In this document: piece after piece, positions 1 to 52,917 of the stretch
Layout of the letters: each line of letters begins with the position of its first letter
Position numbering within the stretch: position 1 is the first letter of the stretch
Source: Nemertoderma westbladi
Lineage: Eukaryota > Animalia > Xenacoelomorpha
Direction of reading: 5' to 3'
DNA: 64,000 nucleotides
NCBI GenBank assembly: GCA_032718475.1
Contig: JAUCBJ010007107.1
Coordinates: 1 to 64,000 of the forward strand
Notes under the pieces: generated by a model
What the model saw: only the letters and a program-made list of their open reading frames with translations
The model's database searches: none
What the model was told of the DNA's origin: nothing
Position numbers and translations under genes: made by a program

Positions 1-1218
1 ATACAGTCCCAATCCCAATAAACATTAACTTGGTCATTTTGGCGGCCAAAACGACCAAAATGGCCAAATATAAATTGCGGCATTCATGAAAGGAACTTCT
101 GAGGCAAGTTGGCTTGTCAATCACAGCCAGTGAATAGAGGCTGAGTGTAAGTAAAGCCCAGGATGTTGGCAGATAGAAAAAGGCTTCGATTTCCGGACAT
201 TCCCTCCCCCCCCCCCCCCCCCCCATCCCAGCCCCCCCCCCCGGACATTCCCTCCCCAACCCCCCACCCCCCCGGACAGTTCCGTTCCGTTCGAGTAGGA
301 CACTACTGTTTTATAGTTCCCACGTTTATTTTTCATTTTGTAAGGTAAACGGACCGCTTGTATCCAGACAAGTTGTACAGTATCCAATTTCCCTTTCTTA
401 CTGTAGCTCAGAAATTTATATTTTGCATCCCGATTTTACATTTTGTATCCACGTTTTATTTATGGATTTCATCAATTCAATTACACTGTATTGTTTGCTA
501 ATCTTTAAACAATTACAGTAATTAGATGACCTATATATTCCATCCCCCGAATGATATACTGTTTTGTTTACTAGAGTTATAATAATTATGTAACAGTTTT
601 AATTATGAGTATTATTATCTAATTGAGTTCTTCAAATAGAAGCAGATGGGGTTGACTATTATTGATGCAATCAAAATTTATACCTCTCCAGGGGAAATCG
701 ACATGCGTAGACCTGTATTCTGTGTTCAGCATTACATATTGATAAACTAATTACATTTCCTGGTTACTTGCAATATTTTAAATATGATTTTGTTGAATTA
801 TATAATATTATAGTAATTGTTATATTAATTTGGGAGAGAGGGGTGGAAACTGGACGATTATCCTTCCCCTATTCATTTCAATGGTAGCCAGCTTGTCTTT
901 CCCGCACTGGGGGTAGACCATTGCCATTGGTTAGCTGTATGCTATTGTAATACAAAGAGAGCGGCAGGATAAAGAGAAATGCCGACCTCACTAATAATGG
1001 GCTGGTTGTTTGTCCCACATGTCACTTTAAGGTAGGGGGTACAGTAGGTACTACAGTTTACATGTTCAAGGGCGCCAGTCCCTAGTCGCTAGCCCATAGT
1101 CTGTCATGGAGTTCCTGTAGTAGTTTCAGACGCTTTCACTCAGTATCCTAGTGTCCAGGAAGTTGGGAGTTGAGTGTGGGTGGGTGGATTGGTGGCCCCC
1201 ACGCAACACCGCAGTGTC

Positions 1219-1626
1219 GGGTGACTACAAAACAAAGACCAACGACCCAAATAATAAAGACCTGTACAAATACAAAACACATGTGTTAACTTTCGTTTAT
1301 TGTTTTGGTTTCCCAACACGCCTCTGTACTGTAACCTGCTTCTTTACTAACCTGCTCCTTTAAATGGCAATGTGACCTCACGCTCTCTGGCAATGGGACC
1401 TAAAGCTCTTTGGAACCTAACGCTCTTTGGGACGTAACGCGACTTTACCTCTTTGTTTTGTACAGGTCACAATGAGCGTTATGTACCATTGCTATTTAAA
1501 GGAGCAGGTTAGTAAAGGAGCAAGTTACAGAGGCGTGACGGGGGATTCAAAACAATTAACGAAAGTTAACACATGTAACAAGATTATGCAGGTCTTTATA
1601 ATTGGGTCTTTGTTTTGTAGTCACCC
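1219..1626. mobile_element. Mutator-like MITE nested in the TIR element
   Basis: TIRs gggtgactacaaaacaaagacc / ggtctttgttttgtagtcaccc with further internal inverted similarity; exact 9-bp TSD cgcagtgtc at 1210-1218 and 1627-1635. Confidence 0.85.
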
Positions 1627-1699
1627 CGCAGTGTCCGCGAATTATACATTGTAAAAAAATATTAAAAAAAAATGTTATTATAAAAAAAAATATTATTGA

Positions 1700-1935
1700 A
1701 ATTAATTTCCGAAATTAACATCCCGAAATTAATTTATGGACGTCCATTAATTAGTTATTTCATTACGATTCTGATTGGTTGATAGATTAATTTCGGGACG
1801 TCCATAAATTAATTTCGGGACGTCCATAAGTTAATTTCGGGACGTCCATAAGTTAATTTCGGGACGTCCATATAGTTAATTTCGGGACGTCCATAAATTA
1901 ATTTCGGGACGTCCATAAATTAATTTCAGGACGTT
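1700..1935. repeat. Minisatellite, ~22-bp unit (ttaatttcgggacgtccataa), with inverted copies at its left side
   Basis: About 6-7 direct copies at 1787-1935; reverse-complement pieces (tcccgaaattaatttatggacgtcc) at about 1700-1745. Confidence 0.85.
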
Positions 1936-3006
1936 CAGATTATTATACATACTCCTCCTTTAACGAAGCCCCATTTAACTCCTTTTATAAGACTGTGTAC
2001 TCTATCAATGCCTCAGTGGGCGGACTCCAGTACTGCAAGGCTCAGCGCCGGGTAAGTTAACAATCTGTCAATAATAAAAATGAAAGCGAGCCGACATTTA
2101 GTCAGATCCACCAAATGGATGGCCAAGGAGACAGACTGTCTGGATTGAGCTGATTCGAGTTAAATCGCTTCGCCAAAACGACCAAGTAGCCCATAGGAAT
2201 ACACTACATTTTTTTGGTGATTTTGGTCATTTTGGCCGCCAAAACGACCAAGTTAATGTTTATTGGGATTGGGACTGTATTATATTGTATTTGGAATATT
2301 GAAGTTGTATCTCTTTCTCAACGCTCGACATGTATTTAGTTTTGTTTTACAACCGTCAGTGTTGTTTCTAACTTGGTTGTTTTCTCCTCGACCATATTTC
2401 ATATTTTACTGGTATCGCTGTATTATATCGAGTCTTAATAATAATAATAATATGCATGGATCTTCGCCCTTCCATCAGGATTGCCGATGTAAATATATTA
2501 ATGCCTGTTCCATATCAACCACCACGCTACTGTTTGCCAGAAGTGTCCGCTACTTGCCTTGCTGAGCTCGTGGCCTAAATAATTTATTCTGTAAATATTA
2601 TACGGTAAATAATAAATATCAGTTTAAAATTATATTCTAAACATTTTATGTATTAATTATATTTTAAAGTGTACTTGATTGTAAATTTTGTTGCAGTCAA
2701 GTTTAGTTGTTTTAAATAAATAAATTTACTCAGCTTGGAGTGTATGTATATATTAAAAAAAAAATAATAATATCATCATTATCTGTCATACTGTCATTGC
2801 GCCAATAAAAGATAAGTTATTTTCGGTAAAATAAACTTATCATTCGAGGTTAAGACCCCTAGATCCCTTCCTATAATAAATGTATAATAACAAACACCTC
2901 GAAAAATACAGCTTGCCAACACATTGTTACTATCAATAATAAAACATCAGGGGCTAATAAAATGGCAGCTGGCTTTGAAATTAATACTCCATATCTCAAG
3001 AACCTG

Positions 3007-3059
3007 TGGCCTAGTGGTTGTAGTCTCGGCTTCTACCTCGAGGTCCCAGGTTCGAATCC
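3007..3059 (+). promoter_or_regulatory. tRNA-derived internal Pol III promoter (A box + B box), repeated in every 411-bp unit
   Basis: A box tggcctagtgg 3007-3017; B box ggttcgaatcc 3049-3059; tRNA-like spacing, but no acceptor stem. Confidence 0.8.
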
Positions 3060-3062
3060 GAC

Positions 3063-3105
3063 ACCACGCTGATGAGACCCAGTAAGGTCGAAACGCGTAC
3101 GTGGT
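3063..3105 (+). ncRNA. Minimal type I hammerhead ribozyme, copy 1
   Basis: Helix I accacg/cgtggt, core CTGATGA, helix II gacc-cagtaa-ggtc, GAAA, palindromic short helix III acgcgt, GUA cleavage triplet ending 3099. Confidence 0.9.
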
Positions 3106-3473
3106 TTGGAGAGATATGAGATATTAATTTCAAGAAAAATTACGCGATTCCTAAATTTGTACACTACCCGGTTTAAAAGTACGCATGTGATGGGATTAGT
3201 CCTACAATTGCGCCAATAAAAGATAAGTTATTTTCGGTAAAATAAACTTATCATTCGAGGTTAAGACCCCTAGATCCCTTCCTATAATAAATGTATAATA
3301 ACAAACACCTCGAAAAATACAGCTTGCCAACACATTGTTACTATCAATAATAAAACATCAGGGGCTAATAAAATGGCAGCTGGCTTTGAAATTAATACTC
3401 CATATCTCAAGAACCTGTGGCCTAGTGGTTGTAGTCTCGGCTTCTACCTCGAGGTCCCAGGTTCGAATCCGAC

Positions 3474-3516
3474 ACCACGCTGATGAGACCCAGTAAGGTC
3501 GAAACGCGTACGTGGT
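3474..3516 (+). ncRNA. Minimal type I hammerhead ribozyme, copy 2
   Basis: Identical to 3063-3105 (+411). Confidence 0.9.
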
Positions 3517-3884
3517 TTGGAGAGATATGAGATATTAATTTCAAGAAAAATTACGCGATTCCTAAATTTGTACACTACCCGGTTTAAAAGTACGCATGTG
3601 ATGGGATTAGTCCTACAATTGCGCCAATAAAAGATAAGTTATTTTCGGTAAAATAAACTTATCATTCGAGGTTAAGACCCCTAGATCCCTTCCTATAATA
3701 AATGTATAATAACAAACACCTCGAAAAATACAGCTTGCCAACACATTGTTACTATCAATAATAAAAAATCAGGGGCTAATAAAATGGCAGCTGGCTTTGA
3801 AATTAATACTCCATATCTCAAGAACCTGTGGCCTAGTGGTTGTAGTCTCGGCTTCTACCTCGAGGTCCCAGGTTCGAATCCGAC

Positions 3885-3927
3885 ACCACGCTGATGAGAC
3901 CCAGTAAGGTCGAAACGCGTACGTGGT
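3885..3927 (+). ncRNA. Minimal type I hammerhead ribozyme, copy 3
   Basis: Identical to 3063-3105 (+822). Confidence 0.9.
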
Positions 3928-4295
3928 TTGGAGAGATATGAGATATTAATTTCAAGAAAAATTACGCGATTCCTAAATTTGTACACTACCCGGTTAAAAA
4001 GTACGCATGTGATGGGATTAGTCCTACAATTGCGCCAATAAAAGATAAGTTATTTTCGGTAAAATAAACTTATCATTCGAGGTTAAGACCCCTAGATCCC
4101 TTCCTATAATAAATGTATAATAACAAACACCTCGAAAAATACAGCTTGCCAACACATTGTTACTATCAATAATAAAACATCAGGGGCTAATAAAATGGCA
4201 GCTGGCTTTGAAATTAATACTCCATATCTCAAGAACCTGTGGCCTAGTGGTTGTAGTCTCGGCTTCTACCTCGAGGTCCCAGGTTCGAATCCGAC

Positions 4296-4338
4296 ACCAC
4301 GCTGATGAGACCCAGTAAGGTCGAAACGCGTACGTGGT
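4296..4338 (+). ncRNA. Minimal type I hammerhead ribozyme, copy 4
   Basis: Identical to 3063-3105 (+1233). Confidence 0.9.
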
Positions 4339-4706
4339 TTGGAGAGATATGAGATATTAATTTCAAGAAAAATTACGCGATTCCTAAATTTGTACACTAC
4401 CCGGTTTAAAAGTACGCATGTGATGGGATTAGTCCTACAATTGCGCCAATAAAAGATAAGTTATTTTCGGTAAAATAAACTTATCATTCGAGGTTAAGAC
4501 CCCTAGATCCCTTCCTATAATAAATGTATAATAACAAACACCTCGAAAAATACAGCTTGCCAACACATTGTTACTATCAATAATAAAACATCAGGGGCTA
4601 ATAAAATGGCAGCTGGCTTTGAAATTAATACTCCATATCTCAAGAACCTGTGGCCTAGTGGTTGTAGTCTCGGCTTCTACCTCGAGGTCCCAGGTTCGAA
4701 TCCGAC

Positions 4707-4749
4707 ACCACGCTGATGAGACCCAGTAAGGTCGAAACGCGTACGTGGT
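4707..4749 (+). ncRNA. Minimal type I hammerhead ribozyme, copy 5
   Basis: Identical to 3063-3105 (+1644). Confidence 0.9.
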
Positions 4750-6350
4750 TTGGAGAGATATGAGATATTAATTTCAAGAAAAATTACGCGATTCCTAAAT
4801 TTGTACACTACCCGGTTTAAAAGTACGCATGTGATGGGATTAGTCCTACAATTGCGCCAATAAAAGATAAGTTATTTTCGGTAAAATAAACTTATCATTC
4901 GAGGTTAAGACCCCTAGATCCCTTCCTATAATAAATGTATAATAACAAACACCTCGAAAAATACAGCTTGCCAACACATTGTTACTATCAATACTGTCAT
5001 ATAGGCCTACCGCATAAATCCTGTAACAGTCTGACAGTGCACAGTGTAGGCCTATGGTTTACAGGCTGACAGGTCAGCTCAGCAGGTGTCTGGTGTATGT
5101 ACATGAAGTGCGGTACAGAAAGTAGTTTATGTAGTCAGTAGTACAGTAGTTACTATAATAATAATAATAATAATGCACTCTTTTATTAGGCTAATCATTA
5201 AACATATAAAAATTAATTAAAAGGGAGAACATCACCCAGGTTAGGTTACATGAACACTTACGGGCAACAATTGCACTTACAGACTTACAAATAGGCCTAT
5301 CGTTAAATTAAAAGACTAAAATACATGTTTCTTATATATTGTAAAAATTACTAATCCAAAAATCTACCAAAACTACAATAGGCCCCCTACGCCCTACCCC
5401 TAAGGTAAAAGATCTACTTTTTTTTAACAAGTTCTTAAAAACATTAATATTGCAGTATTGACTGCCATAAACTACGTCTGACTGTCTGACGGTAAATCGT
5501 CATATCGTCTGATCGTTCCATACACTTACTACACCGTCCTGTACACGCGGTTTGAATAGGAATACTTAGTTATCTCTAATCTAGTAAAACGTTTAAAAAG
5601 TTTATAAGAATGTCCTCTATTGCACCGCACCGTATTTCAGTATTTGCAAAATTAAAAAAATTTTTTTGCGGTAGATCAAAAAGTTGATGTAGAATGTTGT
5701 AAGTCATTGCAGCATTGTAAGATCAAAAATATGTCTTCGTACTTCTAAAGGCTGTACGGTAGTTCTAAGATTCTCAGCTCAATTAAATCAATTGTACCAA
5801 AGTGAATGCAGGAATGGGAGAGCTAACTGGAGTACAGTATTCTAGAATACTGGAATAGGTCACACGGGACTTATAGCTGTATAGGCAGTACCGGTAAGAA
5901 TTGCGTTTAAATTCAGAAATTACCAGTACAGCAGTATGAAAACATCTGAATATCATATTAACTATTTATATACGCCTTCTTCACCTGCTCCCTAAAGTAC
6001 TGAAGTATAAGTTAAACTTTAAATCACTACTTATAGTTATACCCAGATCCCTACAAGATGTATCATATCTCAATTTTGAACCACATACTGACATGACATA
6101 GATGGTATTCATTACTGTAATTACAATCTATTCTACGCTACCTGTACTGATATGAAGCACAGAGGTACCGGTACGCTGTCGTTAGTACTGTAGTACCGGT
6201 ACGCTACAGAACTAACTGCTGTACCGGTCAGCCGGTACTTTATTCAGTATTAACCCGTTAAACTGTTAAACGCTACCGTATTAAATACGATTAATCCTAA
6301 ACACAATAATTCCGATACTGATACTAACTCATAAACTGACTATTTTAATA

Positions 6351-9300
6351 ATGCCAAAGTCGTATACTAGCAGTACCGGTACTAGTCAAGGAAAACTGGT
6401 ACGAAATTCCGCTGCTTCCAAACTCTTCGATGAAGCCGTGGGATTTGATTGGATAACACCGAAGGATTCGACGAGGAGAGAGACTCGCGCGTCGTCCAAG
6501 TCGCCGGAGAAATCCAGCCAATCATCGACGTCTTCCTCGGTGTTTGATTCTCCGGAAAAACAACCGAATGTATTGCCTACTGGCAAAGGGAAGACGGCGC
6601 CGACCGCTCCTCGGAACAAACGCAAACTATCCGCTGTCAGTCCAATTAAATCGCCCTCAAAGAGGGCGAAAAATTGCGGAAACGACAACGCTAAACAGTC
6701 GCGTCTCCAACCCGAAACGGCGGACGCCAACGAATCCGAATCAGAGATCAAATCATCATCGAAACTTTTCGATGAGATTTTACCGACGACTCGAAAATCG
6801 AGTGGGAAGAATAAAACTCCGACGAAAATAGATTTAAAAGCAAAAAGAAGAAAACGCACTTATTCATCCACGCTGTTGGAGAATTCAACTTCAGAGACTG
6901 GCGCTCTCAGCGTTACCGTTTCTAGAACTTCCGGAACTTGTTTTGGTTTCGAGGACGATATCACTAGGCCTACACCCGGTAAACCGAGGAAGAAAGTCGA
7001 CGAACACAACTACGGAGCCGAGGTTTATGTGTCGAAACAGAAAGCGGAAGATCATCTGTATCTGCACGCGGTGTACGAAGATGGGGAGCGGAAACGGGAT
7101 CATTCGTACGCGACGCACTCGGATACCAAACCCAAGTACTACTGGCGGGAGAAGGGGAAGCCGCACAGCGACCACACGTACGAGTGCGAGGACGGAGTCC
7201 CGATAAACCATAACGTCGCCCTGATGGAGTCCAACAAACAGTTAACCGATAAACGACCCCAACAAACAGACAAACATCCCCAACAAACGGACAAGCGGCC
7301 CCAACAAACAGAAAAAATGCCTCAACAAGCGGACAGACGGCATAAACAAACGGACAAACGTTCTAAATTAGTAAGAGACGAAAAGTTTAAATCAATAAAC
7401 GACAACGGGAATAAATCTTTATCGGAAGAGTTTAACGATTCGAGCGATTATATTGAGGAATCTCTCGATCTCCCCGAGACCACCTCGGTCGGTGTTTACG
7501 ATTATAGCGACGAATTCACCCCGACTAAAGATTCCACCGACATCAAGGAACAGCCCAAAACCGGTGGGGAGGCGAAACGACGGATTCTGTGTAGCCCGCG
7601 GAAGAAGGTCGTCTACAACGCCAAATCGTGGCTCTCGGTGGACGGCGACTCCCCGGAGGAACCGAGGACCCCGGCTCAACGCCGACTCGTCGCGGTTCCC
7701 CCGAGGACTCCGGTTCAACCCCGTCTCGACGCTGTACCCCCCACCCCCGTTATATCCAACACGACTCACGAACTCCGCGAACTGGGCGAGTCCCAGAAAC
7801 TCAAAGAGGACCTCAGCTACCTGTTGGAAGGCTTGCAGCCGAGACACGCGCTCGCCACGCGGGTGCTCAGCGCGGTGAGCTTCGCGACTCGGTGCTGCGA
7901 CCGCCGCTTCCGTCTGCACCTCCGGGCCCGCGGGTGTCTCCCCCGGGTTATCGTGGCGCTGCGGGACTCCCCCCGCTACCAGTGTATGTCTCTGTGCGCG
8001 GCCGCCGTCCTCTTTCTGCTCGTCCAGGAGGGCAGCGTTGACCCGGAAGTGGACGTGCGAACCCTCGCCTTGCTGCTGCAACTCGCGCGGGTGCGACAGC
8101 GGTGGACCGGCCTGGAGGACGCCGGATCCACCCAGTCCGGTAAGGCCCACATGCGGATGGGTCAGCTGTTTAAGGGTCTCCTCCTCGGGGATGGACTCAT
8201 GTTGCTAGGGAACCCCAGCGTGGAGTCTGCCAGCGTCCGCGTGGGGGATCTAGCGATGGAGGCGGCGCTCACCATGGGGCTACTCAGCGGCTCAGAGTGG
8301 TTCAAAGAGCGACTCAGAACGTTCGGGGGGATCCCCCTTCTAGTCGACTACGTCCAGCAGTGGACCGACGTGGTCCTCGACGCTGATTGGTCCGACAGCC
8401 GCGGCGACCTCGATCGGGCGCTACTGTGCTGCACCAAGGGTCTATGCGTGGTCGTCACTGTGACCGAGGGGAACCTCGCCAATATTACCGCCCTGTTGGA
8501 GTACGGCGAGCTGATTGGTCGCTTGGCCCAGCTGGCGGGTCGCTGTCACACCGCGTTGCTAGACGACAACCAATCAAAGGGCGATAAAACCTTAGATTCT
8601 AATGAATCGCCGCAGATTAATAAAGCGTTCGGTGACTCAACGACCCAAAGTAAAGTCTTCAGTTGTCTCCAAGCAGTTCTTAAGACTTTGGTTCATTTAT
8701 CCTACGACGACAACGAGTTAGGGACTCACAGCACTCTGGTTGGTCAGCAAGCCGACCTGATTGGTATGCTGATAGACTGCGTCCTCCGTCTCCCTACAAG
8801 CATTCCTTGGGTTGAACGTCACGACGTTATGGTCCTCGGGTTGGTCCTACTGATCAACCTCGTCATCCACAGCCCCGCCAACCGCACCCAGGTCCTCCAA
8901 CCGGAAGAGACGCAACCCGGTTGTGACGTCATCGTCTCCTTGACGACCCTGTACGAGCGGTACACGGGTTTGGCGGCGGAGGCGGAATCCGAGACGATTT
9001 CTGCGATTCGGAGCACCAAGGAGCGGATGTTGCTGAAGTCGCAACGCACCGCGGACAACCGGGTTACCGAGAGCATTAAGGCGGCGTTACGGAGCGCGCA
9101 GAAGACCGCGGACTCGCATCTCGAGAACTCCATGGTAGCCGCTTACACCGCGCTCCTATTGGGTTGTCTAGTTCAGAACGACTCAGACTATATAGACCTG
9201 TTGAAGTCCAGTCTCCCGGGTAACAGTCTCTCCGGGATGGTGGAACGCTTACAATGGTACGTGGAATACTTCGAGTCGACTTTTAAGGACGATTACGATG

Positions 9301-9353
9301 TTATCGCTAATGTAGGTAAGGTTATTCGAACTTTACAACATTATATTCAATGA
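6351..9353 (+). CDS. WAPL: Wings apart-like (WAPL) cohesin release factor homologue, single exon, 1000 aa
   Basis: Disordered S/K-rich N-terminus with FGF motif (CFGFEDD); C-terminal WAPL domain motifs ELGESQKLKEDLSYLLEGL...TRVLSAVSFATRC...FRLHLRARG, EWFKERLRTFGG, VLGLVLLINLV, HLENSMVAAYTALLLGCL; aataaa near 9400. Confidence 0.9.
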   Translation: MPKSYTSSTGTSQGKLVRNSAASKLFDEAVGFDWITPKDSTRRETRASSKSPEKSSQSSTSSSVFDSPEKQPNVLPTGKGKTAPTAPRNKRKLSAVSPIKSPSKRAKNCGNDNAKQSRLQPETADANESESEIKSSSKLFDEILPTTRKSSGKNKTPTKIDLKAKRRKRTYSSTLLENSTSETGALSVTVSRTSGTCFGFEDDITRPTPGKPRKKVDEHNYGAEVYVSKQKAEDHLYLHAVYEDGERKRDHSYATHSDTKPKYYWREKGKPHSDHTYECEDGVPINHNVALMESNKQLTDKRPQQTDKHPQQTDKRPQQTEKMPQQADRRHKQTDKRSKLVRDEKFKSINDNGNKSLSEEFNDSSDYIEESLDLPETTSVGVYDYSDEFTPTKDSTDIKEQPKTGGEAKRRILCSPRKKVVYNAKSWLSVDGDSPEEPRTPAQRRLVAVPPRTPVQPRLDAVPPTPVISNTTHELRELGESQKLKEDLSYLLEGLQPRHALATRVLSAVSFATRCCDRRFRLHLRARGCLPRVIVALRDSPRYQCMSLCAAAVLFLLVQEGSVDPEVDVRTLALLLQLARVRQRWTGLEDAGSTQSGKAHMRMGQLFKGLLLGDGLMLLGNPSVESASVRVGDLAMEAALTMGLLSGSEWFKERLRTFGGIPLLVDYVQQWTDVVLDADWSDSRGDLDRALLCCTKGLCVVVTVTEGNLANITALLEYGELIGRLAQLAGRCHTALLDDNQSKGDKTLDSNESPQINKAFGDSTTQSKVFSCLQAVLKTLVHLSYDDNELGTHSTLVGQQADLIGMLIDCVLRLPTSIPWVERHDVMVLGLVLLINLVIHSPANRTQVLQPEETQPGCDVIVSLTTLYERYTGLAAEAESETISAIRSTKERMLLKSQRTADNRVTESIKAALRSAQKTADSHLENSMVAAYTALLLGCLVQNDSDYIDLLKSSLPGNSLSGMVERLQWYVEYFESTFKDDYDVIANVGKVIRTLQHYIQ
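7245..7360 (+). repeat. In-frame 21-bp coding repeat (QQTDKRP-like, about 5 copies) in WAPL
   Basis: TDKRPQQTDKHPQQTDKRPQQTEKMPQQADRRHKQTDKR. Confidence 0.8.
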
Positions 9354-21023: not shown

Positions 21024-21950
21024 GGGCGTTGAAAGATTGCAAGAAGTATCGCTTGCTGAAGGCCATTTATTATATTTAATAGATACATAAAATTCTAGAA
21101 TGAGTTATTTATTTTGGTGGTTGCTTAGCTAATCATACATAAACAAAATGTTCCAGAACATTGTGTATAATTTTTTTAAATAGAATAACTGGCCCTCAGC
21201 GAACGATACTTCTAGCAATCTTTGAACGCCCGTATCTCAGCTGTTTCTAAACGAAATTCAACAAAAATCGAATTGCATTTTGGAATCCTTGCAAAGCAAG
21301 CTTTCTAATGGTATGAAAAATTCACTAATGATTATCAATGAGATTAATTAATGTGAAGTATGGCGACAATAGGAGATGTGCAATTTCGCAAAAGACACTT
21401 TTTTAAAACGCATATTAAACAAATTTACAGGCAAAATCGAAAATGCCGGCTTCATGTGGAAATCGACGGTGAGTGGAACTAGTTGTTCAAGTAATATGAT
21501 AAAGTACGGAAGCCCATAACGGCCATGTCGCGCGCAAACTTCCATGTCAAGCGCGCAAACTTTATGCCATTTCCGTGTAGAAACATTTGCGCGCGCGACA
21601 TGGAAGTTTGCGCGCGCGACGTGTAAGTTTGCGCGCGCGACATGGAAGTCGCGCGCGCAAACTCTCATGTCGCGCGCGCAAACTTTCATGTCGCGCGCGC
21701 AAACTTCCATGTCGAGCGCGCAAATATTTCTACACGGAAATGGCATAAAGTTTGCGCGCTTGACATGGAAGTTTGCGCGCGACATGGCCGTTATGGGCTT
21801 CCGTAATAAAGACTAGTAGAAAAAGTTTGGGGGGGGGGGTGTGAAAATGACAATATATTACGGGCCACGTTGTAATTGTTAGGGAAAATAAGGTTAGTTT
21901 CAACAGGAAAAGGCTACTAGGAAAAGTTATATGGAGAGAGTATTGGGTGG
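21024..21950. mobile_element. Dispersed non-autonomous repeat (left part), interrupted by a MITE and by the BEL/Pao element; continues at 41042-41220
   Basis: 21213-21950 plus 41042-41220 is colinear with the uninterrupted copy at 62417-63058; internal inverted repeat at about 21024-21064 / 21191-21231. Confidence 0.75.
21505..21805. mobile_element. Palindromic MITE, IS3EU-like (TAC...GTA termini, 6-bp TSD)
   Basis: tacggaagcccataacggccatgtcgcgcgcaaact / agtttgcgcgcgacatggccgttatgggcttccgta; TSD ataaag 21499-21504 and 21806-21811; empty site atgataaagactag at about 62703-62716. Confidence 0.85.
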
Positions 21951-24482: not shown

Positions 24483-25616
24483 ATTAGTAGTATCACAGTA
24501 TTAAGTAATAAGTTGGAGCACGTGATCGTCTGCTGTAGGCTATAGGCTAGCGTACAGTAAGACATTGAGTTTATTCTATTAGGTTGTTAGTTTAGATTAC
24601 TGTATTCACTGGCTGCGTACAATAGTACAGTAGTACATTAGGCTGATTGTTGTTACTGCGTACGGTAGAAGGGACATTTGTTTTGCCGTACCACACACAG
24701 TATCATTAGGCTGTTAGGTTGGTGTACTGTTTTACTTACTGTACTGCATACAGTGAATGTACGGTAGTGCGTTTTTACTAATTGCGAATACAGCAGTTCC
24801 TTAGGCCTTAGGGCAAACAGTAATTAGTAAGTTTTTTGAAAATTTTAGCTAGGTTTGCGAGAATTCAGTTTTCGGTCAAAATTATTTTGTAAAATTCTAG
24901 AGTTTTGTACCGGTATGTTAGGTAACCGCTTAGTTATTTTATACCATCTGGAGATATATGGCAAGACGGAACTTCTGAGTTTGGGGTTCGTGTGGGTCTG
25001 CGGGTTCGGTTTGCAATCAGCGAAGGGCCTGAATCTTTGGACGCGGACGTGGAATCTCACAGCAAACAAGGTTGGTTGTTCTGTTGGCACCAGTGTGTTT
25101 GTGGAAGCAGTAAAAAATTACCGGTTGTTTAACTGCGAAGCTGAACTCAATTTATTAGTTAGGATATTTAGGTTTAGCCGGCCATGGTTTTTTGAATCGC
25201 TCAAGTTAGAGAGAGAGTTAGAGAGAGTCGCAACCCGAAGATGTAGCCACGCGCTAGTGGATACATATAATATTTGAAACTAAAATTACGTTGATTAGAG
25301 CTATATATATAAAATTAGAAATATTCGGGTGGCAAGTATATTTTGAATATTTTGTATTAGATTCAGAGTTATTTTGTGCTATACCGGTATTTAATGCTAT
25401 ATAATAGCTATATAATAATATTTTGTTTAAATATTGTGCTAGTATTTGCTATAACTATATACCCCATTAAATTCACAATATTGCATTGCGAATTTATTTT
25501 GACATTTGGACCAACTGATTATTTGACAAATAATTTGACCGTATTTCGGTTAAATTATAATTATATCTCGAACTTTGCGAGATATTTTTGCCGGAAGGCA
25601 AAATATTATTTAGACT

Positions 25617-28600
25617 ATGAGTGTCTCAGACAAAGAGGCACTAGAGGACAGCTATGAGACGGCGGCTGGACCGCCGACTGACGATAGCGTAAATATTACT
25701 GTTGATGACAATGCCGACTATGACGACGCAGCGAGCGACGCTGACGTAAGTGAACAGGAGGACGAGACAGTGACTAGTGAGGAAGAACAGCAGCCTCATG
25801 TAATAGTATTAGGATCCCCTACCGCTACTGTAAGGAAGGATTGTACAGCAACCCAACCAGAGGTGAGTGATAGGGAGGGTAGTGTAGCAGAAGCGAGAGC
25901 CCGGAGCCCGGTTTCCAGACCTGTGGGTATGGTAAGTGCCGTGGTCCCGACGGCTGTTAGGAGTACCCGTAGTTTCCGAAATAATCCTTCAAGTCCACCA
26001 AGTGTGAGTCAGGTAAGCGAGAGAGAACTTGATATCGCGATAAAGAAGAAACTTCGCGCGCATGCCGGACATATAACTCGGACGGCGGACAAGGTAAGGA
26101 AGATGTTAGCTGACCCAGCGAACATCGGGAGGGTAGAATTAGTAGAGATTAGAAGAGGATATAACTCAGCGTTATTCAAGCAGACGGAGGAGCTTGCAGT
26201 CCTAGCGAAGAAGGCAGTAGAGTCTCAGTCGAGCGACGTAGCAACGAGGATTTACGACAGGGTTTTAGCAGCCTTGTTAGAGCACCGCGAGTTATCGGAG
26301 CGATTCCGGCGAGTTAGGACGGAGAACTGGCTGCTATGGGCATCACAAACGCAGGCGACTCAGGTGAGTGACGCAGAGTTAAGAGACTTAGTGGAGCGGG
26401 AAGAGATCCAAGATAAGGAAGAGCGCCGTTATCAGAGGGAAGTTACTAGCTGGCTGATGCAGAATGGAGTGGTGGTACCAGGCCAGGTGCTACCGACGAC
26501 GGAGAACATTCAACAGAGGACGTTAACTCCACCCGACGATGCATCCAGAGACAGCGGCGATTCCCAGGTTAGTCACGCGCGAGGGAAAGTAATATGTGCT
26601 AGATCCCTTGTTTCTCACAACTCGGCGGAGGAGAGAAGACGCCGACTAGACGAACAGCAGGCGGAAGTTTTGCGTGCACAGGAAGCACGGAAGGAAGCCG
26701 AGCGGGAACGGGAGCGCACACGTAAGTTGGACGCAGAGTTACGAGAGTTGGAAGAGATAAGTAAGCGCGAGCGAGCGGAACGCGAGCAAAGGGAACGTGA
26801 ACTCCAAGCCGAGCGCGAGCGCGAGGAACTCGAATGCGAACAGAGAGAACGCGAACTCCAACTTGAATGCGAACGGGAAGCGAAGAAACGCGAACTCCAA
26901 CTCGAACGCGAACAGGAAGCGAAGAAACGCGAACTCCAAGCCGAACGCAAGCGCAAGAAACTCGATCGTGAACAGAAGGAGCGCGAGCTTCAACTCGAAT
27001 GCGGACGCAAGGAACGCGAACTCGAGATCGAGAAAAGAAGACGCGCATTGTATGAAGAAAAGGCGCGAGTGGAAGAAGAGAGCGCAGCGAGACGAGCGAG
27101 GGAAGAAGAAGAGCGTAAACTGGCGCAGTTGGAAAGTGCGAGATTAAGTTTAGAGAGCGAAGAACGGACTAGGAAGGCGAACGAAATCGCCGAGAAGGGG
27201 ATGCGAATGCTCGAAGAATGTGGGGCGAGTGTGGGGACAGAGTTGCGAGAACTGTTCGCACTGCAGAAGGCCGAACAGGAAGCGAGAACTCCGACTATAC
27301 GCGAGTCAACGACGACCAGAATTCCTATACCCGGTCCAGCTATTACGAGTACACGGATCGTTAAACCGTTCTCTACATATCGCACGCCAGTTGGTATTAG
27401 TGCTTCACCTATCGCCCAGGATCTACGTCATCGGAACGCCGCACCACTGTATACCGAACGTGACAACGGAGAATTTAGAGAAGAAACTCCAACGGGACGA
27501 GTATTTGGCGAACCGAACCCGCGGGTTTGGAATACGCGGACGGAGCGCCGACCCAGTTCGACGGAGAACTTCCGGGTTAAACCGGAAGAGGGATCATATG
27601 AGAGACAGCGGATTACTCAGATAGAGCCGACTATACAACAGAACCCTAGCCAGGAATTTATTACGAGGGATGAGTTAAGTGCTAGTTTAGCGCAAGCTAT
27701 ATCGCCGCACATCCAACCTATAACGGACATGCTTAGCAACCTACGGTTAAAGGAAGCAGCCCAGGTAAGAAGTAATTCTAATCCTAGCAGGCCTGAGTTA
27801 GATAAAGTCCAGCCTAGTCAACGAGTACGCATATCGGAGGAGACTATACCACATAGACCTCAGGTAAGGACGCCTGTCCCGAATATCCATAATCCCAATT
27901 TCGAAAATTCGGCAGAAAGATTTATTGAGGAAGCTTGGGTCAGGGCCTCGGCGCGCAAACCATCGCGAGTGCTAAGGACTGACACCGAGTCAAGCGATGA
28001 AGAGGAAGACATGAGACGTCAGAAGTCCCGAAACTATAAGGAAAGAAGGACGGACGCGGAGCAGGTAAGTTGGAACCACCGGGAAAGGACCAGACTTAAC
28101 AACCCTGCGGAACTAAACCATTTGTTAACCCGGAACGACGCAACCCTTAGGGACATAGGTAAGTTTGCTGCTAGGCAAGGACTGCCGACGCAGCAACCCC
28201 AGAAGTTTATGGGTAACCATAAACATTGGAGGACCTTCAAAACCTATGTCGACGAGCAGCTAACCAACAGCACCTTTACTCCCAACGAAAAGTTCAACTA
28301 TTTGCTTCAGATGCTCCATCGAGAACCTAGAGCCATTGCTGATAACTTCGTCGGCAATGAACGGGCATTCGAATTAGCGATGAAGACGCTTAGCGACATC
28401 TACGGGAATAAAACGAAGATGGCGCAGTCGATAGTAGAAGACTTGGGTAAGGGCGGAAGGATTACAACTCCGTTAGAGCTGTTGAACTTAGCGAACGCTA
28501 TTTCGAACGCATTGGACATCTTGAGGACGGTGAATCTACCTCATCATGGTGATCACGCCGAAGTTTTGAAAAGCGTAATAAGACGTTTAAACATGCGTTA

Positions 28601-31600
28601 CAGACAGAAATGGCGCAAATTAGAGAATAAGTTGGAGGGCCAAGGTAAGGTGTTGACACTTCAGCATATTCATGACATGATAGCCACAGACGCAGTAGCA
28701 GAGATGAAATCAAACTTCTCAGAGGAGAATATGAGGGAGTCTAAACCTGTTACCGGTAAGTCTATGGTAAGTTTTGACGATGACAGGACCACTGTGACAT
28801 TTAACTCAGTAGACAGATATAATTCGAATACCCCAGCCTTTAGATCAGACTCGCGAGTATGGTCAGGTGAGCGGTTAGATAGACCTAGGTTAAAGCAACA
28901 GGAGTTGCCGGATGGATTTGTAGGTTGCCAATACTGTTTACTAAAGGAGGTAAGATCTGACGACCATAAGTTAGATAGTTGCAGACGGTTCAAAGAATTA
29001 AATTCGGAACAGAGAAGAGTTCAAGTGCGGACGTTGGACACCTGTTGGGCTTGTCTTGCGCCAGGTCATGTACGGCGGCAGTGCCCGAACAGCAAGGACG
29101 GATGCATGGAATGCGGCAGACTACATCACAAGTTGCTACATGCGGATTTCCACACCCCAACGGACCGTTACTTACAGCGAAATCCTCAAAGGAAGGGGAG
29201 CAAAGAACCCGTATCGATAAGGAGGAATACGTACACTGGCATCCAGGACGATGGTTACCAACCAGGTTCGTCGGACGAGGATGGCGAGTCGAGCGCGAGA
29301 GAAGTGACCTGCCAAGGTTTCACTGCGGATAGTTCATCGACCAGCGCGCGGACGTATTTATCATCGGCAACGTCGGAAATATTTAGCGTGATTCCGGTGA
29401 AACTCACTGGCGATAAGGGATCGAAGCGAATATATGTGATGTTGGACACTGCGTCCACATTATCTTATATCGACGAGGAAGTGGCGAGAGCCGTTTCTAG
29501 CTTCCAGGACGCCGAGGAGATCCAAATAGAGTTGAAGTCTATGCATGGAGTAGGAGACCTCAAGGGACACAGAATTTCGGTAGAACTTGATTCCCTACTT
29601 CCGAGAGACCAGCATACTCGACAAGAACGGAAAGCTTTGCCATTGGACGGATTTAAGTGTCTAGCTATGAAGGGATTCGGCAGGCAGTTAGGTAAGGTGC
29701 CGCCGATGAGTCCCATAGCACAGGAGTATTTTGACAAGCTCAGGATACCCAGACATCAGGTAGGTTATAGGAATGTTTCTATGTTGATTGGTGCAGAACA
29801 GCTGATCGCACACCAGATATGGGAAACGAGACCAGCTGAGCCGCATGTCAATGGACCACATGCCCATAGGACCATACTAGGTTGGTATACACGAGTACCC
29901 ATGTCTTATGAGTTTACAGGTGGCGACAAGCCAATGGACAGATACGATGAATTACAGCCTATAACTCAACCACCGTTAGTAGAACCACCAGACATAGACG
30001 AGTTTAGGAGAACCTGTATTGACCACTATAGTGACTTTAGCGAGTCGGACGAGGAGTTGATTCCCGATAACGTTAGGTTGTCGGAACCACTTCATAATGA
30101 CCGGACAGATAGTGAACCCGAGGACTACTGTTATCAGACCCGTGGGTCTGGTTCAGCGGCCCACGCTACCTATTTGACTAACGTTTTGACTTATACCGAC
30201 ATAGTGGAGGGTCAAGTGGCTAAATATCGAGACCTAGACATTTTCCAATACAGTGAGGAGGAATTACAGAAGGAATTGATACGCCAGGACCTCGAAACAG
30301 GAGCTAGAACCGTCGAATGGCTGGATAGGGACGCAATGGAACCCGGTGGGTATGATCTAGCCATGTCTACTGATGAGAAACGGTCGCTGGAGATGATGGA
30401 AGATACCATACGTCTACTACCGACTGGACATTTTGAAGTTGGAATGTTGTGGCGTCGACAACCACCTAAGTTGGAGAACAACTACAGCTTAGCCTTGAAA
30501 AGATTGAACGGAGTAAGGGCTCGGTTGTTGAAGAATCCGGACATTAGGGAGAAGTATTGCGCCCAGATCAACAACTATTTCGCCAAGGGATTTGCTGGGA
30601 AGGTAGAGGACCCTGACTTAGTGACAGACCAGACTTATTACCTTCCACACCACTATGTGACTCACCCTGACAAGCCAGACAAAGTCCGAGTAGACAACGA
30701 CTGCGCAGCAGTCTATAGAGGTATGTCCCTAAATTCAGAGTTGATGGATGGTCCCAACCTGAATAACTATTTGATTGGAATACTGTTGCGTTTTAGACAG
30801 CGGCGATTCGCATTTACTTGTGACATCGAGGCGATGTTCCACCAGGTAAGAGCCTGTAAGGCAGACCAGGATAGCCTTCGATTTCTCTGGTTTGAGAATG
30901 AAGACTTATCCGGCCCAGTGGTTACATACCAGATGTACGTAAGGATATTTGGCGCCCGCGATAGTCCAAACGGCACGCTGTTTGTGCTAAAGAAAACGGC
31001 AACAGCCCAGATTGGTAAGTACCCAGTAGAAGTAATCGAGTCCATCTTGAGAAACTTCTATATGGACGACGGATTGGTGTCCAAGGACACAGCGGAACAA
31101 GCCATAGAAGTGGCTCATGGCCTGCAAGAGTGCTTGGCTACAGGGGGATTTCCTCTGACCAAGTTCACTACTAATTCGGAGGCCCTATTAGAATCGTTCC
31201 CGGTAAAAGATCGCGGGAGCGGAGACATAGAATTGGGGGTAGAACCAATCCCCATGGCGCGAGTACTGGGACTCGCTTGGAACCCGAACTCGGATAAGTT
31301 CCAGGTAAGAGTTAGATTTGAGCCCAGTAGCCCAGACAAAGTTTTGACAAAGAGAATTTGCTTATCGACATTAAGTAGACTATTTGACCCGATGAACTTT
31401 ATCAGTCCGGTTATATTACAGGCACGAGCGTGCATGAGGAAAATTTGGTTGTCCGACTTAGAGTGGGACGAACCAATATCTCCTATACATGCAAAGCAGT
31501 GGAGGGAGTGGGAAGCCGAGTTGCATCTATTGAAAAATATAGATGTACCCCGTTCCTACTTTCCGAATCAGCTGGTATTTCCAGCTGATTTAGAACTGCA

Positions 31601-34055: not shown

Positions 34056-34819
34056 TGTTGGACGCAACTCACTTCGTATGCATTCCTCGTATGCAAATAC
34101 AAGGAAATGCATAGGAGCGGGGTTGTGGTGATTTGCGTTGAGTTTTGTCTGGTGGGTATCAAAACAAAATTTTATTTTCAAAAATTTTGGAAAATTTAAA
34201 ATTTTTAAAAAATTAGAAGTGAACCCAAGACAATTCCAGACGCTGTGTATAGACGCGTTTTAGAATTCGTCTATAGATAAACAGTAATTTGAAAAGTCGT
34301 GAAGCCTGGAAAATAGCATTTAGAAACCATGGTGACGGCTATATTACGTAGGAGTGTAAATTGAGTTTAGCAACTTCCACAGATTGGTGCCAACAGTGCA
34401 ACTAAGGTGCTAAAGGTTAGTAGCACCAGAGGGGTGCACGGACCCCACTCAGTAGTTTGCAGGATGTGTGATGTTCGATTATCAAACCTGTGGGTTTGGT
34501 ATAGTCGAGTATTGTGGCTATAGTCCTTTCTAACTACTGTAGTTTAGTACGAGTAATGGGAGTAGTTTGGGCATCAAAAAGTGAGTTGGTCACGGCCAGT
34601 TTATCTCCAAAGTTTTTGCGCTATGCATGGGAATAGGTTAGAGGATAGTTAGTTAGGAAGAGACGGGATCTAGAGAGTCGAACCTGAACTGCTGGAAGGC
34701 GGGGGGGGGGGGGGTTCGGGAGGTCTGTCCTTCGGCGACATCTAACTGATTTACCCACAGTGTAGTTGGTTACGTAACGGCACTTATTGGGATATATATA
34801 TGTATATACGCGTAACATA

Positions 34820-44062: not shown

Positions 44063-44510
44063 AAAAGTATACTTCACCCGTATTTACGATTACGACCACA
44101 AGAGTCCACAAGATACCGAACCACTGCAACACAACTAAGCAGGTATCACTTGTTTCTAGTGTTTACTCTAATTGCATTTCCCTGTGTTTTCAAAATGTGT
44201 ATAAACTGGTAAAATATATAGCAGGAGGTATTAAATTGTGAAAGAGTTAAAATTGAAAATGTATTAATTTATGAAATTGCGTTCAATGTAAAGGACGGTA
44301 ATAACGAAATTGACAAAGGGAAATAAAAAGACAAAGTCACAATCACAATTTTAGTTGTATCCTATTATTGCTCTTTTATGCAGTTAATACGAGAGATATT
44401 TCTCGAAATATTTACTATTAAAAGTAAACTTTATAATAAAAAATTAATAAAATGGGAAATTTTCGGAAAAATGTAAAGAAAAAATGTCCTAATATTTCCT
44501 CATAGGAACT

Positions 44511-44785
44511 GATCTAGGGGTCTTAACCTCGAATGATAAGTTTATTTAACCGAGTATGTACGCATGTGATGGGATTAGTCCTACAATTGCGCTAATGAAA
44601 GATAAGTTATTTGGGTTAAGACCCCTAGAACAGTTCATATAACAAAATGTATAATAAATAACAAACACATCAAAAAACACAGCTCGCCAACAGCACATTT
44701 ACTAACATTTCCTGATGTTGTTGTACCAACATTTATAACTAAAATTGTCTGTCACTGACAGACAGACAGACAGACAGACGGACGA
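44511..44785. repeat. Dispersed repeat homologous to part of the 411-bp unit, with an inverted segment and (GACA)n microsatellite (Helentron/HINE-like)
   Basis: 44558-44699 matches gtacgcatgtgatgggattagtcctacaattgcgc...; 44511-44553 is the reverse complement of another unit segment; gacagacagac... at 44757-44784. Confidence 0.7.
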
Positions 44786-51615: not shown

Positions 51616-52917
51616 ATTCAGAGTTTATGCGATTATTCGCAACATTCATATCCCCAAGTTTATTCCTACAGTAATTGTGTTTGTTATACATACCGTTATA
51701 GTTAAACTAACCCCGGTACTACATCAGGGCTGCTCGGCGTAGGTAAAGACTGGAGATTTTGTGCTTTGGTCACTCCGGCAGATACCGTGGTTCTTTTAGC
51801 TGTTCAAGTATTTTTAACTACTGATTATTTGTTGTACAAGTACTTGTACCTAATTTAGGGTTTAGTGTACAGTGCTTTCCGAAAGCAATTAGTGTGTAGG
51901 CAGTTTATTTGTGTTGTAAAGTGGTTAATAGGCACGTTGGTTCTGGTAGACCGCGGTAATTAATCTCTAGGTAGGAACACTCCGTGATACATAACGTAGT
52001 ACCTATAGCGATACGGTTATAGGTCGTCAGGCGGTGGTATTTTCCTATCTGGACAACGCAGTATATTTACTACTACTTATTATTTTCAAATACCGTAGTA
52101 ACCTGTCCGTCGTAATAACCAGATATTCTAACCCTTTGTTAGGCTGGTTTGTAGATTCCCTGTAAAATTACCCTAAAAATTCGTATTTGTGTATTTGTAA
52201 TTTTTGTGTTTATTTAGAGATTGTAATCTCACCCAGATTGTACGTAATTTGTAGTAATAAGTAACTTAGGTAAATTAGAATTATTTGTTTTAGTGTCCAA
52301 TAATTAGCACTTCACTGAGAGCGCACAGCTTTTGTGTAGTGATTAATTCCCAGAAATAATAACATCTATTTCAATATTGTAACAAAACCCCTCATACGGG
52401 TACATATAAATCCACTAAATCTATTAATAAAATAGTAGGCCTGTTATACAACAACTAGGTCTCAATATCAGTTGGACTACTGCTTAAATAACGGTAATAA
52501 AGTAAGTTAAAGTAACCAAGTAACCCTAAAATGTTCAGAAATTCAATTATTCTAAAATAATTGACATACCAGTATTTACCATAGGCTTATTATATTTATT
52601 TCTATAAATTTGAGCTGAAATCATACCGGTAATCTGTAATTAATTCTAGTCCATAATTATACTTATATATACTATCAGTGTAAGCTGTATACCGGTATTC
52701 ACGATAGGCCTATTATATATTTATATATATTTGTACTAAAATTATATACCGGTACTCTGTGACAAACCTAGTTTACAATACTTATATATACTATAAGTGT
52801 ATACCGGTATTCTAATATATTGTAATTAATTACCGGTACTAGGCTAACAGTGATACTGAATTACTAGACTTGCTTTGACTGTAATATAGCAGTAGGCATT
52901 CAACTGTACAATCAAAC

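What the first reader, a model, noticed from the sequence alone, without database searches (positions are those of the whole stretch)
2975..3133. tRNA-promoter plus hammerhead ribozyme cassette enclosed in a long hairpin, repeated every 411 bp
Seen: A/B boxes (3007-3059) run directly into a minimal type I hammerhead (3063-3105). Both are bracketed by an imperfect 23-bp inverted repeat (2975-2997 / 3111-3133). Helix III is only the palindrome ACGCGU. Known: such minimal hammerheads in Penelope-like elements and metazoan retrozymes are thought to cleave as dimers, and schistosome SM-alpha repeats also join a tRNA-like promoter to a hammerhead. Inferred: a self-transcribing, self-cleaving 411-nt monomer or circRNA that carries its own Pol III promoter. 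There is only one T4 run per unit (e.g. 3231-3234), so monomer production needs read-through.
Basis: partly seen in the sequence, partly recalled or inferred. Interest (0 to 1): 0.8.

Follow-up and report, generated by a model that had tools for sequence, protein, structure and literature searches.

The report
tRNA-promoter hammerhead retrozyme, Penelope-style ends
This is one insertion (5.3 near-identical 411-base units between two copies of a 10-base target sequence) of a very abundant non-coding animal repeat that carries a hammerhead RNA motif directly behind a tRNA-like promoter motif; it likely makes its own RNA, is predicted to cut itself only in pairs into units that would close into circles, and is likely pasted back by a Penelope-type enzyme, a design already known from blood flukes.

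Summary
Observation confirmed: A/B boxes, hammerhead core, ACGCGU helix III, cut site after 3099, the 20/23 inverted repeat (0 of 200 shuffles match it) and one T4 per unit are all present. Two corrections: the ribozyme is a canonical metazoan type I hammerhead with a newt/axolotl-type weak helix III, not a Penelope 'minimal' one, and the hairpin's left arm lies mostly upstream of the likely Pol III start. New here: the array (2798-4990, 5.34 units) sits in a 10-bp target duplication. The family is very high copy (read depth about 10^4 times the flanks). Its 3' ends cluster at two internal sites around an AC-rich stretch, both downstream of the T4. A decayed copy at 44501-44706 (7-bp duplication) uses both sites, one inverted, which resembles Penelope two-strand internal priming. 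Folding never forms helix III in a monomer, and the double hammerhead ties or wins in a dimer. Verdict: a non-LTR retrozyme of the Schistosoma Sm-alpha design. Transcription, cleavage, circles and the helper enzyme are not shown. The scan has noted what appears to be this family on at least four other pieces of this genome. Interest 0.35.

The parts
2788..2797 (+). left target-site duplication ATACTGTCAT (last 2 bases also match the unit)
2798..4990 (+). tandem array, 2193 bp = 5.34 units of 411 bp; units 1, 2, 4, 5 identical, unit 3 differs at 3767 and 3996
4991..5000 (+). right target-site duplication (first 3 bases also match the unit: possible priming microhomology)
2975..2997 (+). left arm of inverted repeat (repeated every 411 bp)
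3000..3054 (+). tRNA-derived head, predicted to fold as a rod rather than a cloverleaf
3007..3017 (+). Pol III A-box motif
   Evidence: sequence
3049..3059 (+). Pol III B-box motif; 3057-3059 also form the helix I extension
3057..3110 (+). canonical type I hammerhead with 1-bp helix III and palindromic CGCG loop; predicted cut after 3099; copies at 3468-3521, 3879-3932, 4290-4343, 4701-4754
3111..3133 (+). right arm of inverted repeat
3100..3510 (+). predicted 411-nt monomer between two cut sites (promoter at its 3' end); this array could release four
   Evidence: inference from cut sites; folds
3231..3234 (+). only T4 run of the unit, likely a leaky Pol III terminator
   Evidence: PMC5725217 section 6
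3285..3298 (+). 3'-end hot spot A (unit-3 coordinates 3696-3709): likely reverse-transcription start
   Evidence: loose ends; inverted piece of decayed copy
3297..3321 (+). most A+C-rich stretch of the unit, between the two hot spots
3346..3351 (+). 3'-end hot spot B (unit-3 coordinates 3757-3762): 3' end of this array and of the decayed copy
44501..44706 (.). decayed second insertion of the family: 5' inverted piece 44502-44553 plus direct piece 44558-44706, between 7-bp duplications ATTTCCT (44494-44500, 44707-44713); no hammerhead

Best explanation
The cassette is the promoter-plus-ribozyme module of a young, very high-copy, non-coding tandem repeat (a non-LTR retrozyme) that is likely transcribed by Pol III from its own A/B boxes, is predicted to self-cleave only as a double hammerhead, would then be ligated into a 411-nt circle, and is likely reverse-transcribed into AT-rich sites by a Penelope-like element. 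Steps: (1) Pol III starts just upstream of the A box (inferred from motifs). (2) Most transcripts would stop at the T4 as about 235-nt RNAs with one ribozyme that cannot form helix III and lacks both 3'-end hot spots (inferred). (3) Read-through RNAs bring in a second ribozyme. The right arm of the inverted repeat in unit n pairs with the left arm in unit n+1, the two ACGCGU palindromes form a 6-bp helix III, and both sites cut (predicted by folding). (4) The monomer's ends lie close together on the stem made of helix I and the inverted repeat. A host RtcB-type ligase would close it, and the circle would be stable because helix III cannot form alone (by analogy to PMC7229834). (5) An RT/GIY-YIG protein primes at one of two internal sites flanking the AC-rich stretch and copies more than one turn (ends shown; enzyme inferred). 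Only inserts of about 1.8 units or more would carry a promoter and two ribozymes and so stay active.
For: Shown: a non-integer array in a 10-bp duplication, and a second insertion in a 7-bp duplication. No long ORF: longest stop-free frame 69 aa in three joined units. Summed contig depth is 2.8-6.7e5 (X1) and 0.8-5.0e5 (X2) over the unit, against 17.6-18.7 for contigs in the left flank. Of 14 loose-end rows shown (of 498), the 7 with 5 or more contigs are all 3' ends, at 3700-3709 or 3761-3762, running into unrelated AT-rich flanks (agreement 0.43-0.51). Both window insertions end within 1 base of each other at site B, and the inverted 5' piece of the decayed copy ends at site A. This matches PAc: two internal RT starts in an AC-rich stem-loop, AT-rich targets, both strands primed (PMC11167929), and the inverted 5' copies of PLEs (PMC8557442). 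Folding: monomer helix III has probability 0.00, and forcing it costs 11.2 kcal/mol for two units. The double hammerhead ties for lowest energy with ensemble probability 0.10 under default parameters, and reaches 0.99 under Turner 1999. In three diverged contigs from one sediment run, 12 differing places lie in 3830-3864, while one contig has 1 difference over 3865-3944 (B box plus ribozyme) (Fisher p 1e-6, inflated by ascertainment). Precedent: Sm-alpha, Pol III promoter followed by hammerhead in tandem (PMC6765202); axolotl HHR_Amex1 with the same helix III cleaves poorly as a monomer and well as a dimer (PMC7229834).
Against: No Penelope ORF in the 10 of 15 window ORFs scanned with Pfam, and no genome was available to look for one. 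Unit 3 carries the family-majority base at two sites (3767, 3996) where units 1, 2, 4, 5 share rare bases, while all five share the rare T3034: one circle copied five times does not explain this. Within the host species the lack of common variants in the ribozyme is not significant (0 of 13 variable places in 54 of 411 bases, p 0.16). The dimer fold depends on the parameter set (0.10 versus 0.99). In vitro, 8 of 9 Xenopus retrozyme dimers did not cleave (bioRxiv 10.64898/2026.07.22.740005), and for PAc uncleaved RNA was the main insertion substrate. The loop 1 bulge aligns with gaps to the HH9 model, so the tertiary contact may be weak. Duplications of 7-10 bp also fit LINE-type insertion (recalled), and an unchecked scan note reports this family fused to a LINE tail (e1-10596620).
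Confidence: 0.55

Rival explanations
1. Same element, but the template is a linear, uncut read-through multimer (Pol II or Pol III) from a parent array, copied by the Penelope-type enzyme; circles are by-products or absent.
For: PAc inserts mainly unprocessed RNA, and ribozyme mutants insert normally. The mosaic unit 3 could have been copied from a mosaic parent array. Weak ribozymes are common in this class.
Against: If the human T4 value of 75% termination applied, five Pol III read-throughs would be about 1 in 1000, so a Pol II source would be needed. The ribozyme is intact in all 5 units and conserved in diverged relatives.
Confidence: 0.18
2. A short copy (about 1.3 units with terminal redundancy) inserted once and was then expanded in place by unequal crossing-over, as for satellite DNA; array length says nothing about rolling-circle copying.
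For: A 1.34-unit insert would expand to n+0.34 units inside the same duplication. The 2026 preprint proposes local amplification. The odd unit 3 could be a conversion tract.
Against: Four of five units are identical and share rare bases, so expansion would have had to be very recent. It explains array length only, not the fixed 3' ends or the ribozyme.
Confidence: 0.12
3. A SINE-like element mobilised by a LINE (target-primed reverse transcription with an APE endonuclease) rather than by a Penelope element.
For: tRNA head; duplications of 7 and 10 bp with 1-3 bases of microhomology. An unchecked scan note describes a copy joined to a LINE tail (e1-10596620). PMC7229834 lists LINEs as candidates.
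Against: No poly-A or simple-repeat tail. The 5' end is not at the tRNA head. There are two internal 3'-end hot spots, and the inverted piece starts at one of them.
Confidence: 0.12
4. The A/B boxes or the ribozyme are non-functional relics and the repeat is transcribed passively.
For: No function was measured. PMC7761336 states that retrozymes seem to lack promoters and rely on read-through.
Against: Both boxes match consensus at normal spacing, and the B box and ribozyme stay fixed in diverged relatives while the sequence between the boxes drifts.
Confidence: 0.08

Closest known systems
Schistosoma Sm-alpha / Sj-alpha SINE-like hammerhead retroposons (PMC6765202 passages; PMC2770079 passages; the original Ferbeyre 1998 paper was not held)
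   Same: Pol III-type promoter followed directly by a type I hammerhead; tandem repeats; promoter ends up at the 3' end of the cut monomer; over 10,000 copies.
   Different: Sm-alpha resembles tRNA-Gln-TTG; here the anticodon position reads TCT (this array), TCC (family majority) or TTC (sediment relatives), so the origin is likely independent. Helix III here is predicted to need a dimer. Sequence homology to Sm-alpha was not tested. Fixed internal 3' ends and a flanking inverted repeat were not seen in the passages read.
Metazoan non-LTR retrozymes (Cervera and de la Pena 2020, PMC7229834; results parts 1-2 of 3 and discussion read), especially axolotl HHR_Amex1 and newt satellite repeats
   Same: 150-450 bp tandem units, GC under 50%, type I hammerhead in each unit, duplications longer than 4 bp, no coding capacity, 1-bp helix III with a palindromic tetraloop.
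   Different: Carries internal A/B boxes, whereas PMC7761336 says retrozymes seem to lack promoters and PMC6765202 says newt repeats appear to be Pol II transcripts. Circles are shown for those families, not for this one.
Penelope/Poseidon PLEs, e.g. PAc of Anolis (PMC11167929, main text read) and non-autonomous PLE derivatives (PMC8557442 passages; bioRxiv 10.64898/2026.07.22.740005, parts 1-3 of 5)
   Same: Two internal 3'-end sites near an AC-rich stretch, AT-rich targets, inverted 5' piece, partial tandem layout, hammerhead upstream of the RT start region.
   Different: No ORF. Canonical rather than minimal hammerhead. Sites are about 60 bases apart, against the 30-40 bp PLE tail. Short junction microhomology is present, whereas PAc starts without homology. 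No parent pseudo-LTR was identified.

Membership tests
metazoan non-LTR retrozyme | tandem units of 150-450 bp, each with a type I hammerhead | tested here: met
   411 bp x 5.34, five intact motifs
metazoan non-LTR retrozyme | GC under 50% and no protein-coding capacity | tested here: met
   GC 0.37 over 2001-4000; longest stop-free frame 69 aa
metazoan non-LTR retrozyme | target duplication longer than 4 bp | tested here: met
   10 bp and 7 bp
metazoan non-LTR retrozyme | no PBS or PPT | not tested
   no search was made for these motifs
metazoan non-LTR retrozyme | self-cleavage | not testable with these tools
   folding only
metazoan non-LTR retrozyme | expressed as linear and circular monomer RNA | not testable with these tools
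   all runs laid were contigs, which cannot show RNA ends or circles
canonical metazoan type I hammerhead | conserved core; helix I 6 bp, helix II 4 bp, helix III 1-2 bp with palindromic loop | tested here: met
   against the definition in PMC4209133
canonical metazoan type I hammerhead | loop 1 / loop 2 tertiary nucleotides | tested here: inconclusive
   the 6-nt loop 2 aligns to HH9, but the helix I bulge aligns with gaps
PLE minimal hammerhead (min-HHR) | helix II 7-8 bp, helix I 4-5 bp, extra base before helix II | tested here: not met
   helix II 4 bp, helix I 6+5 bp, no extra base
Sm-alpha-like SINE-hammerhead retroposon | tRNA-type A/B boxes directly upstream of the hammerhead, in tandem | tested here: met
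   (motif level only)
Sm-alpha-like SINE-hammerhead retroposon | Pol III transcription | not testable with these tools
   no raw RNA reads
Sm-alpha family proper | derivation from tRNA-Gln-TTG | tested here: not met
   triplet at 3032-3034 is TCT, TCC or TTC; whole-sequence homology not tested
non-autonomous Penelope-like element | internal, clustered 3' ends in AT-rich targets; inverted 5' piece | tested here: met
   (14 of 498 loose-end rows seen; one inverted example in the window)
non-autonomous Penelope-like element | shared sequence with the pseudo-LTR or 3' end of an autonomous PLE of the same genome | not testable with these tools
   no genome held; none in the 10 of 15 window ORFs scanned
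classical tRNA SINE | 5' end at the tRNA head, 3' poly-A or simple-repeat tail, dispersed monomers | tested here: not met
   array starts and ends inside the AT-rich body, with no tail

The most novel reading that the evidence does not exclude
A self-promoting retrozyme whose whole cycle is written into one unit. A leaky T4 placed upstream of both reverse-transcription start sites, together with a dimer-only ribozyme brought into register by the inverted repeat, makes read-through RNA the only cleavable and only transposable form. The resulting circle is copied by a Penelope protein that primes from both target strands at two fixed internal sites. This would be a Pol III-driven, circle-based Penelope passenger that arose independently of Sm-alpha, and a direct in vivo record of the PAc priming mechanism on a non-coding RNA.
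Probability: 0.35. Interest if true: 0.6.

Novelty: new member of a known kind. Interest (0 to 1): 0.35.

Why it matters
Two open points for animal retrozymes are what transcribes them (a review says they seem to lack promoters, PMC7761336) and which enzyme inserts them. This young, abundant family has clean promoter motifs, an intact ribozyme and defined insertion ends, so both points can be tested in one construct. The architecture itself is not new, since Schistosoma Sm-alpha has it. The most useful additions are the two fixed 3'-end sites with a both-strand inverted insertion, and their position downstream of the only terminator.

Tried and rejected
Whole-genome search was impossible, as no genome is held. 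Expression: no RNA holder listed. Run X3 (RNA is a guess, different organism label) has one 441-base contig that closes on itself at depth 13.8, but the DNA runs show the same head-to-tail joint, so it was not used. An empty-site allele was not seen among the 15 of 40 joints shown, which is uninformative. ARAGORN and Rfam do not recognise the head as tRNA, so the parent tRNA is unassigned; a likeness to tRNA-Glu is recalled only. A B-box-plus-hammerhead pattern gave 1 metagenome and 1 viral locus, both phage-like and unrelated, and 0 prokaryotic genome hits. Phage blastn found nothing. These collections hold little animal DNA, so no alignment for covariation analysis could be built. The scan's own sequence look-up found nothing. 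The bacterial promoter scan is irrelevant. One search used helix II indices that were off by one (corrected). In one search the alternative energy sets did not load, so all rows are default parameters; the Andronescu rows equal the Turner 1999 rows and are not independent. The first WAPL homologue search failed on the length filter. The second gave fish proteins at 29-32% identity, which does not place the host beyond 'animal'. Paper searches listed no paper, beyond those on Schistosoma, describing a tRNA-promoter retrozyme; subscription papers (Ferbeyre 1998, Laha 2000) were not seen and no supplements were read, so family lists in supplements may already hold such elements.

Full report
Observation. 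The A box is at 3007-3017 and the B box at 3049-3059; a joint pattern occurs 5 times in 64 kb on both strands, all in this array. The hammerhead has helix I 3063-68/3100-05, extended by 3057-61/3106-10, core CUGAUGA, a 4-bp helix II with loop CAGUAA, GAA, one A-U pair closing CGCG, and the cut site after A3099. Rfam gives Hammerhead_HH9 at 26.6 bits, E 3.5e-4, under its gathering score, and nothing at gathering level. The inverted repeat is 20 of 23 complementary, which none of 200 shuffles reached, and the cassette folds with z -6.35. The only T>=4 run per unit on the + strand is 3231-3234.

Two corrections. By the definitions in PMC4209133 (parts 1-2 of 4 read) this is a canonical metazoan type I hammerhead, not a Penelope min-HHR. 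Its helix III matches axolotl HHR_Amex1, which cut 6% in an hour as a monomer and much better as a dimer (PMC7229834). Second, type 2 Pol III starts lie shortly upstream of the A box (recalled), so the left hairpin arm is mostly outside the first transcript. The stem forms in read-through units and in the monomer or circle, where its outer pairs have probabilities 0.92-1.0. The head is not recognised as tRNA and folds as a rod.

It is a mobile insertion. The array spans 2798-4990 (5.34 units) between two copies of ATACTGTCAT. It starts and ends inside the AT-rich body, not at the tRNA head or the cut site, and has no tail. Units 1, 2, 4 and 5 are identical; unit 3 differs at 3767 and 3996. No whole genome is held, so public runs were laid on it. 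Summed contig depth over one unit is 2.8-6.7e5 in X1 and 0.8-5.0e5 in X2 at the listed variant places, against about 18 for contigs in the left flank. The tool warns that this is not a copy number, but a ratio near 10^4 means a very abundant family. Only 13 places vary at 1% or more in these two runs, so the family is young. T3034 is nearly private to this array (99.6% C in X1).

The ends point to a Penelope-type enzyme. Of 14 loose-end rows shown (of 498), the seven with five or more contigs are all 3' ends, at unit-3 places 3700-3709 (site A) and 3761-3762 (site B), each running into different AT-rich flanks. One search shows the same sites (21 of 757 rows shown). This array ends at site B. 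A decayed copy at 44501-44706, inside a 7-bp duplication, ends within one base of the same place, and its inverted 5' piece ends at site A. The most A+C-rich stretch of the unit lies between the two sites. The Penelope element PAc nicks AT-rich DNA on both strands and starts reverse transcription at two internal sites in an AC-rich stem-loop (PMC11167929, main text), and inverted 5' copies are typical of PLEs (PMC8557442 passages). Differences: the spacing is about 60 bases here against a 30-40 bp tail, and there are 1-3 bases of junction microhomology. Both sites lie downstream of the T4, so any RNA used for these insertions read through it. No Penelope ORF was found in the 10 of 15 window ORFs scanned.

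Ribozyme logic. In single units and in the circle, helices I and II form but helix III has probability 0.00, and forcing it costs 11.2 kcal/mol for two units. In a two-unit RNA the nested double hammerhead, closed by the right arm of unit 1 pairing with the left arm of unit 2, ties for lowest energy. Its ensemble share is 0.10 with default parameters and 0.99 with Turner 1999. Tertiary contacts are not modelled. A T4 stopped 75% of Pol III transcripts in a human U6 cassette (PMC5725217 section 6), a different host and promoter type, so partial read-through is plausible but not measured here. Conservation evidence is thin. Within the host species the ribozyme's lack of common variants is not significant (p 0.16). 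In three diverged contigs from one sediment run, 12 differing places fall in 3830-3864 and one contig has a single difference over 3865-3944; ascertainment inflates that contrast.

Mechanism. Most likely: Pol III start, leaky stop at the T4, double-hammerhead cutting of read-through RNA, ligation by a host RtcB-type ligase (shown for axolotl and mussel retrozymes in vitro), and multi-turn copying by a Penelope protein. Shown: motifs, array, duplications, abundance and end clustering. Predicted: dimer dependence. Inferred by analogy: transcription, circles, ligase and helper. Against a simple single-circle origin, unit 3 has the family-majority base at two sites where the other four share rare bases, yet keeps T3034. 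A template switch, a mosaic linear template, gene conversion or an assembly consensus error could each explain it, and I could not separate them. Also, 8 of 9 Xenopus retrozyme dimers did not cut in vitro, and PAc inserts mainly uncut RNA.

Comparison with what is known. It meets the sequence-level criteria of metazoan non-LTR retrozymes (PMC7229834) and has the layout of Schistosoma Sm-alpha: a Pol III promoter then a hammerhead, in tandem, with the promoter at the 3' end of the cut unit (PMC6765202 passages; PMC2770079 passages). It is not Sm-alpha itself, as the anticodon position does not read TTG. It departs from the review statement that retrozymes seem to lack promoters (PMC7761336 passage). 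A 2026 preprint argues that animal retrozymes derive from PLEs (parts 1-3 of 5). PMC10886601 (passages) was not relevant. The host is an animal, from the WAPL and Pao/BEL genes in the window, and is not resolved further. Earlier scan notes describe 411-412-bp arrays of this design on other pieces of the same genome. They are unchecked, were not matched by sequence, and are not counted as support.

Verdict. Real, well formed and of a known kind: a new member of the Sm-alpha-like retrozymes with clear Penelope-style ends. Interest 0.35; the bolder reading (probability 0.35) would merit about 0.6.

Noticed in passing
L001 1128-1343, minus strand (metagenome contig Ga0315909_10014035): In a phage-like tRNA cluster, a type I hammerhead (core at 1267) sits between tRNA-Gln and tRNA-His. 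Helix I (5 pairs) is made from the tRNA-Gln 3' end and the tRNA-His 5' end, and the predicted cut after C1203 would release an RNA starting at G1202, one base before ARAGORN's tRNA-His start, i.e. the G-1 position (G-1 requirement recalled). A second hammerhead follows tRNA-His near 1070-1020.
   Followed up: partly
L002 1501-1550, minus strand: Viral contig with a hammerhead directly after a tRNA-like B-box sequence; ARAGORN calls no tRNA there.
   Followed up: no
window 3767 and 3996: Unit 3 has the family-majority bases at two sites next to A runs, while the other four units share rare bases; unexplained (template switch, conversion or assembly artefact).
   Followed up: partly
window 6285-9353: Uninterrupted 1022-codon frame with a WAPL domain, starting about 1.3 kb downstream of the array on the same strand.
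   Followed up: partly
window 1-2280: Stretch bounded by 68-bp inverted repeats (94%), with internal 22-bp tandem and inverted repeats: a likely non-autonomous DNA transposon.
   Followed up: no
window 25614-34055 and 52885-56864: Pao/BEL-type retrotransposon frames (2813 aa with Peptidase_A17, DUF1759, DUF5641; a second with DUF1759); the 1249-aa frame at 34778-38527 has no Pfam match. Direct repeats at 21949 and 38832 may be LTRs.
   Followed up: no
window 21505-21805: 145-bp arms, 96% complementary, made of 21-bp GC-rich repeats: a large palindrome.
   Followed up: no
window 3222-3249: The only T4 lies in the stem of a strong local hairpin, which may affect termination.
   Followed up: no
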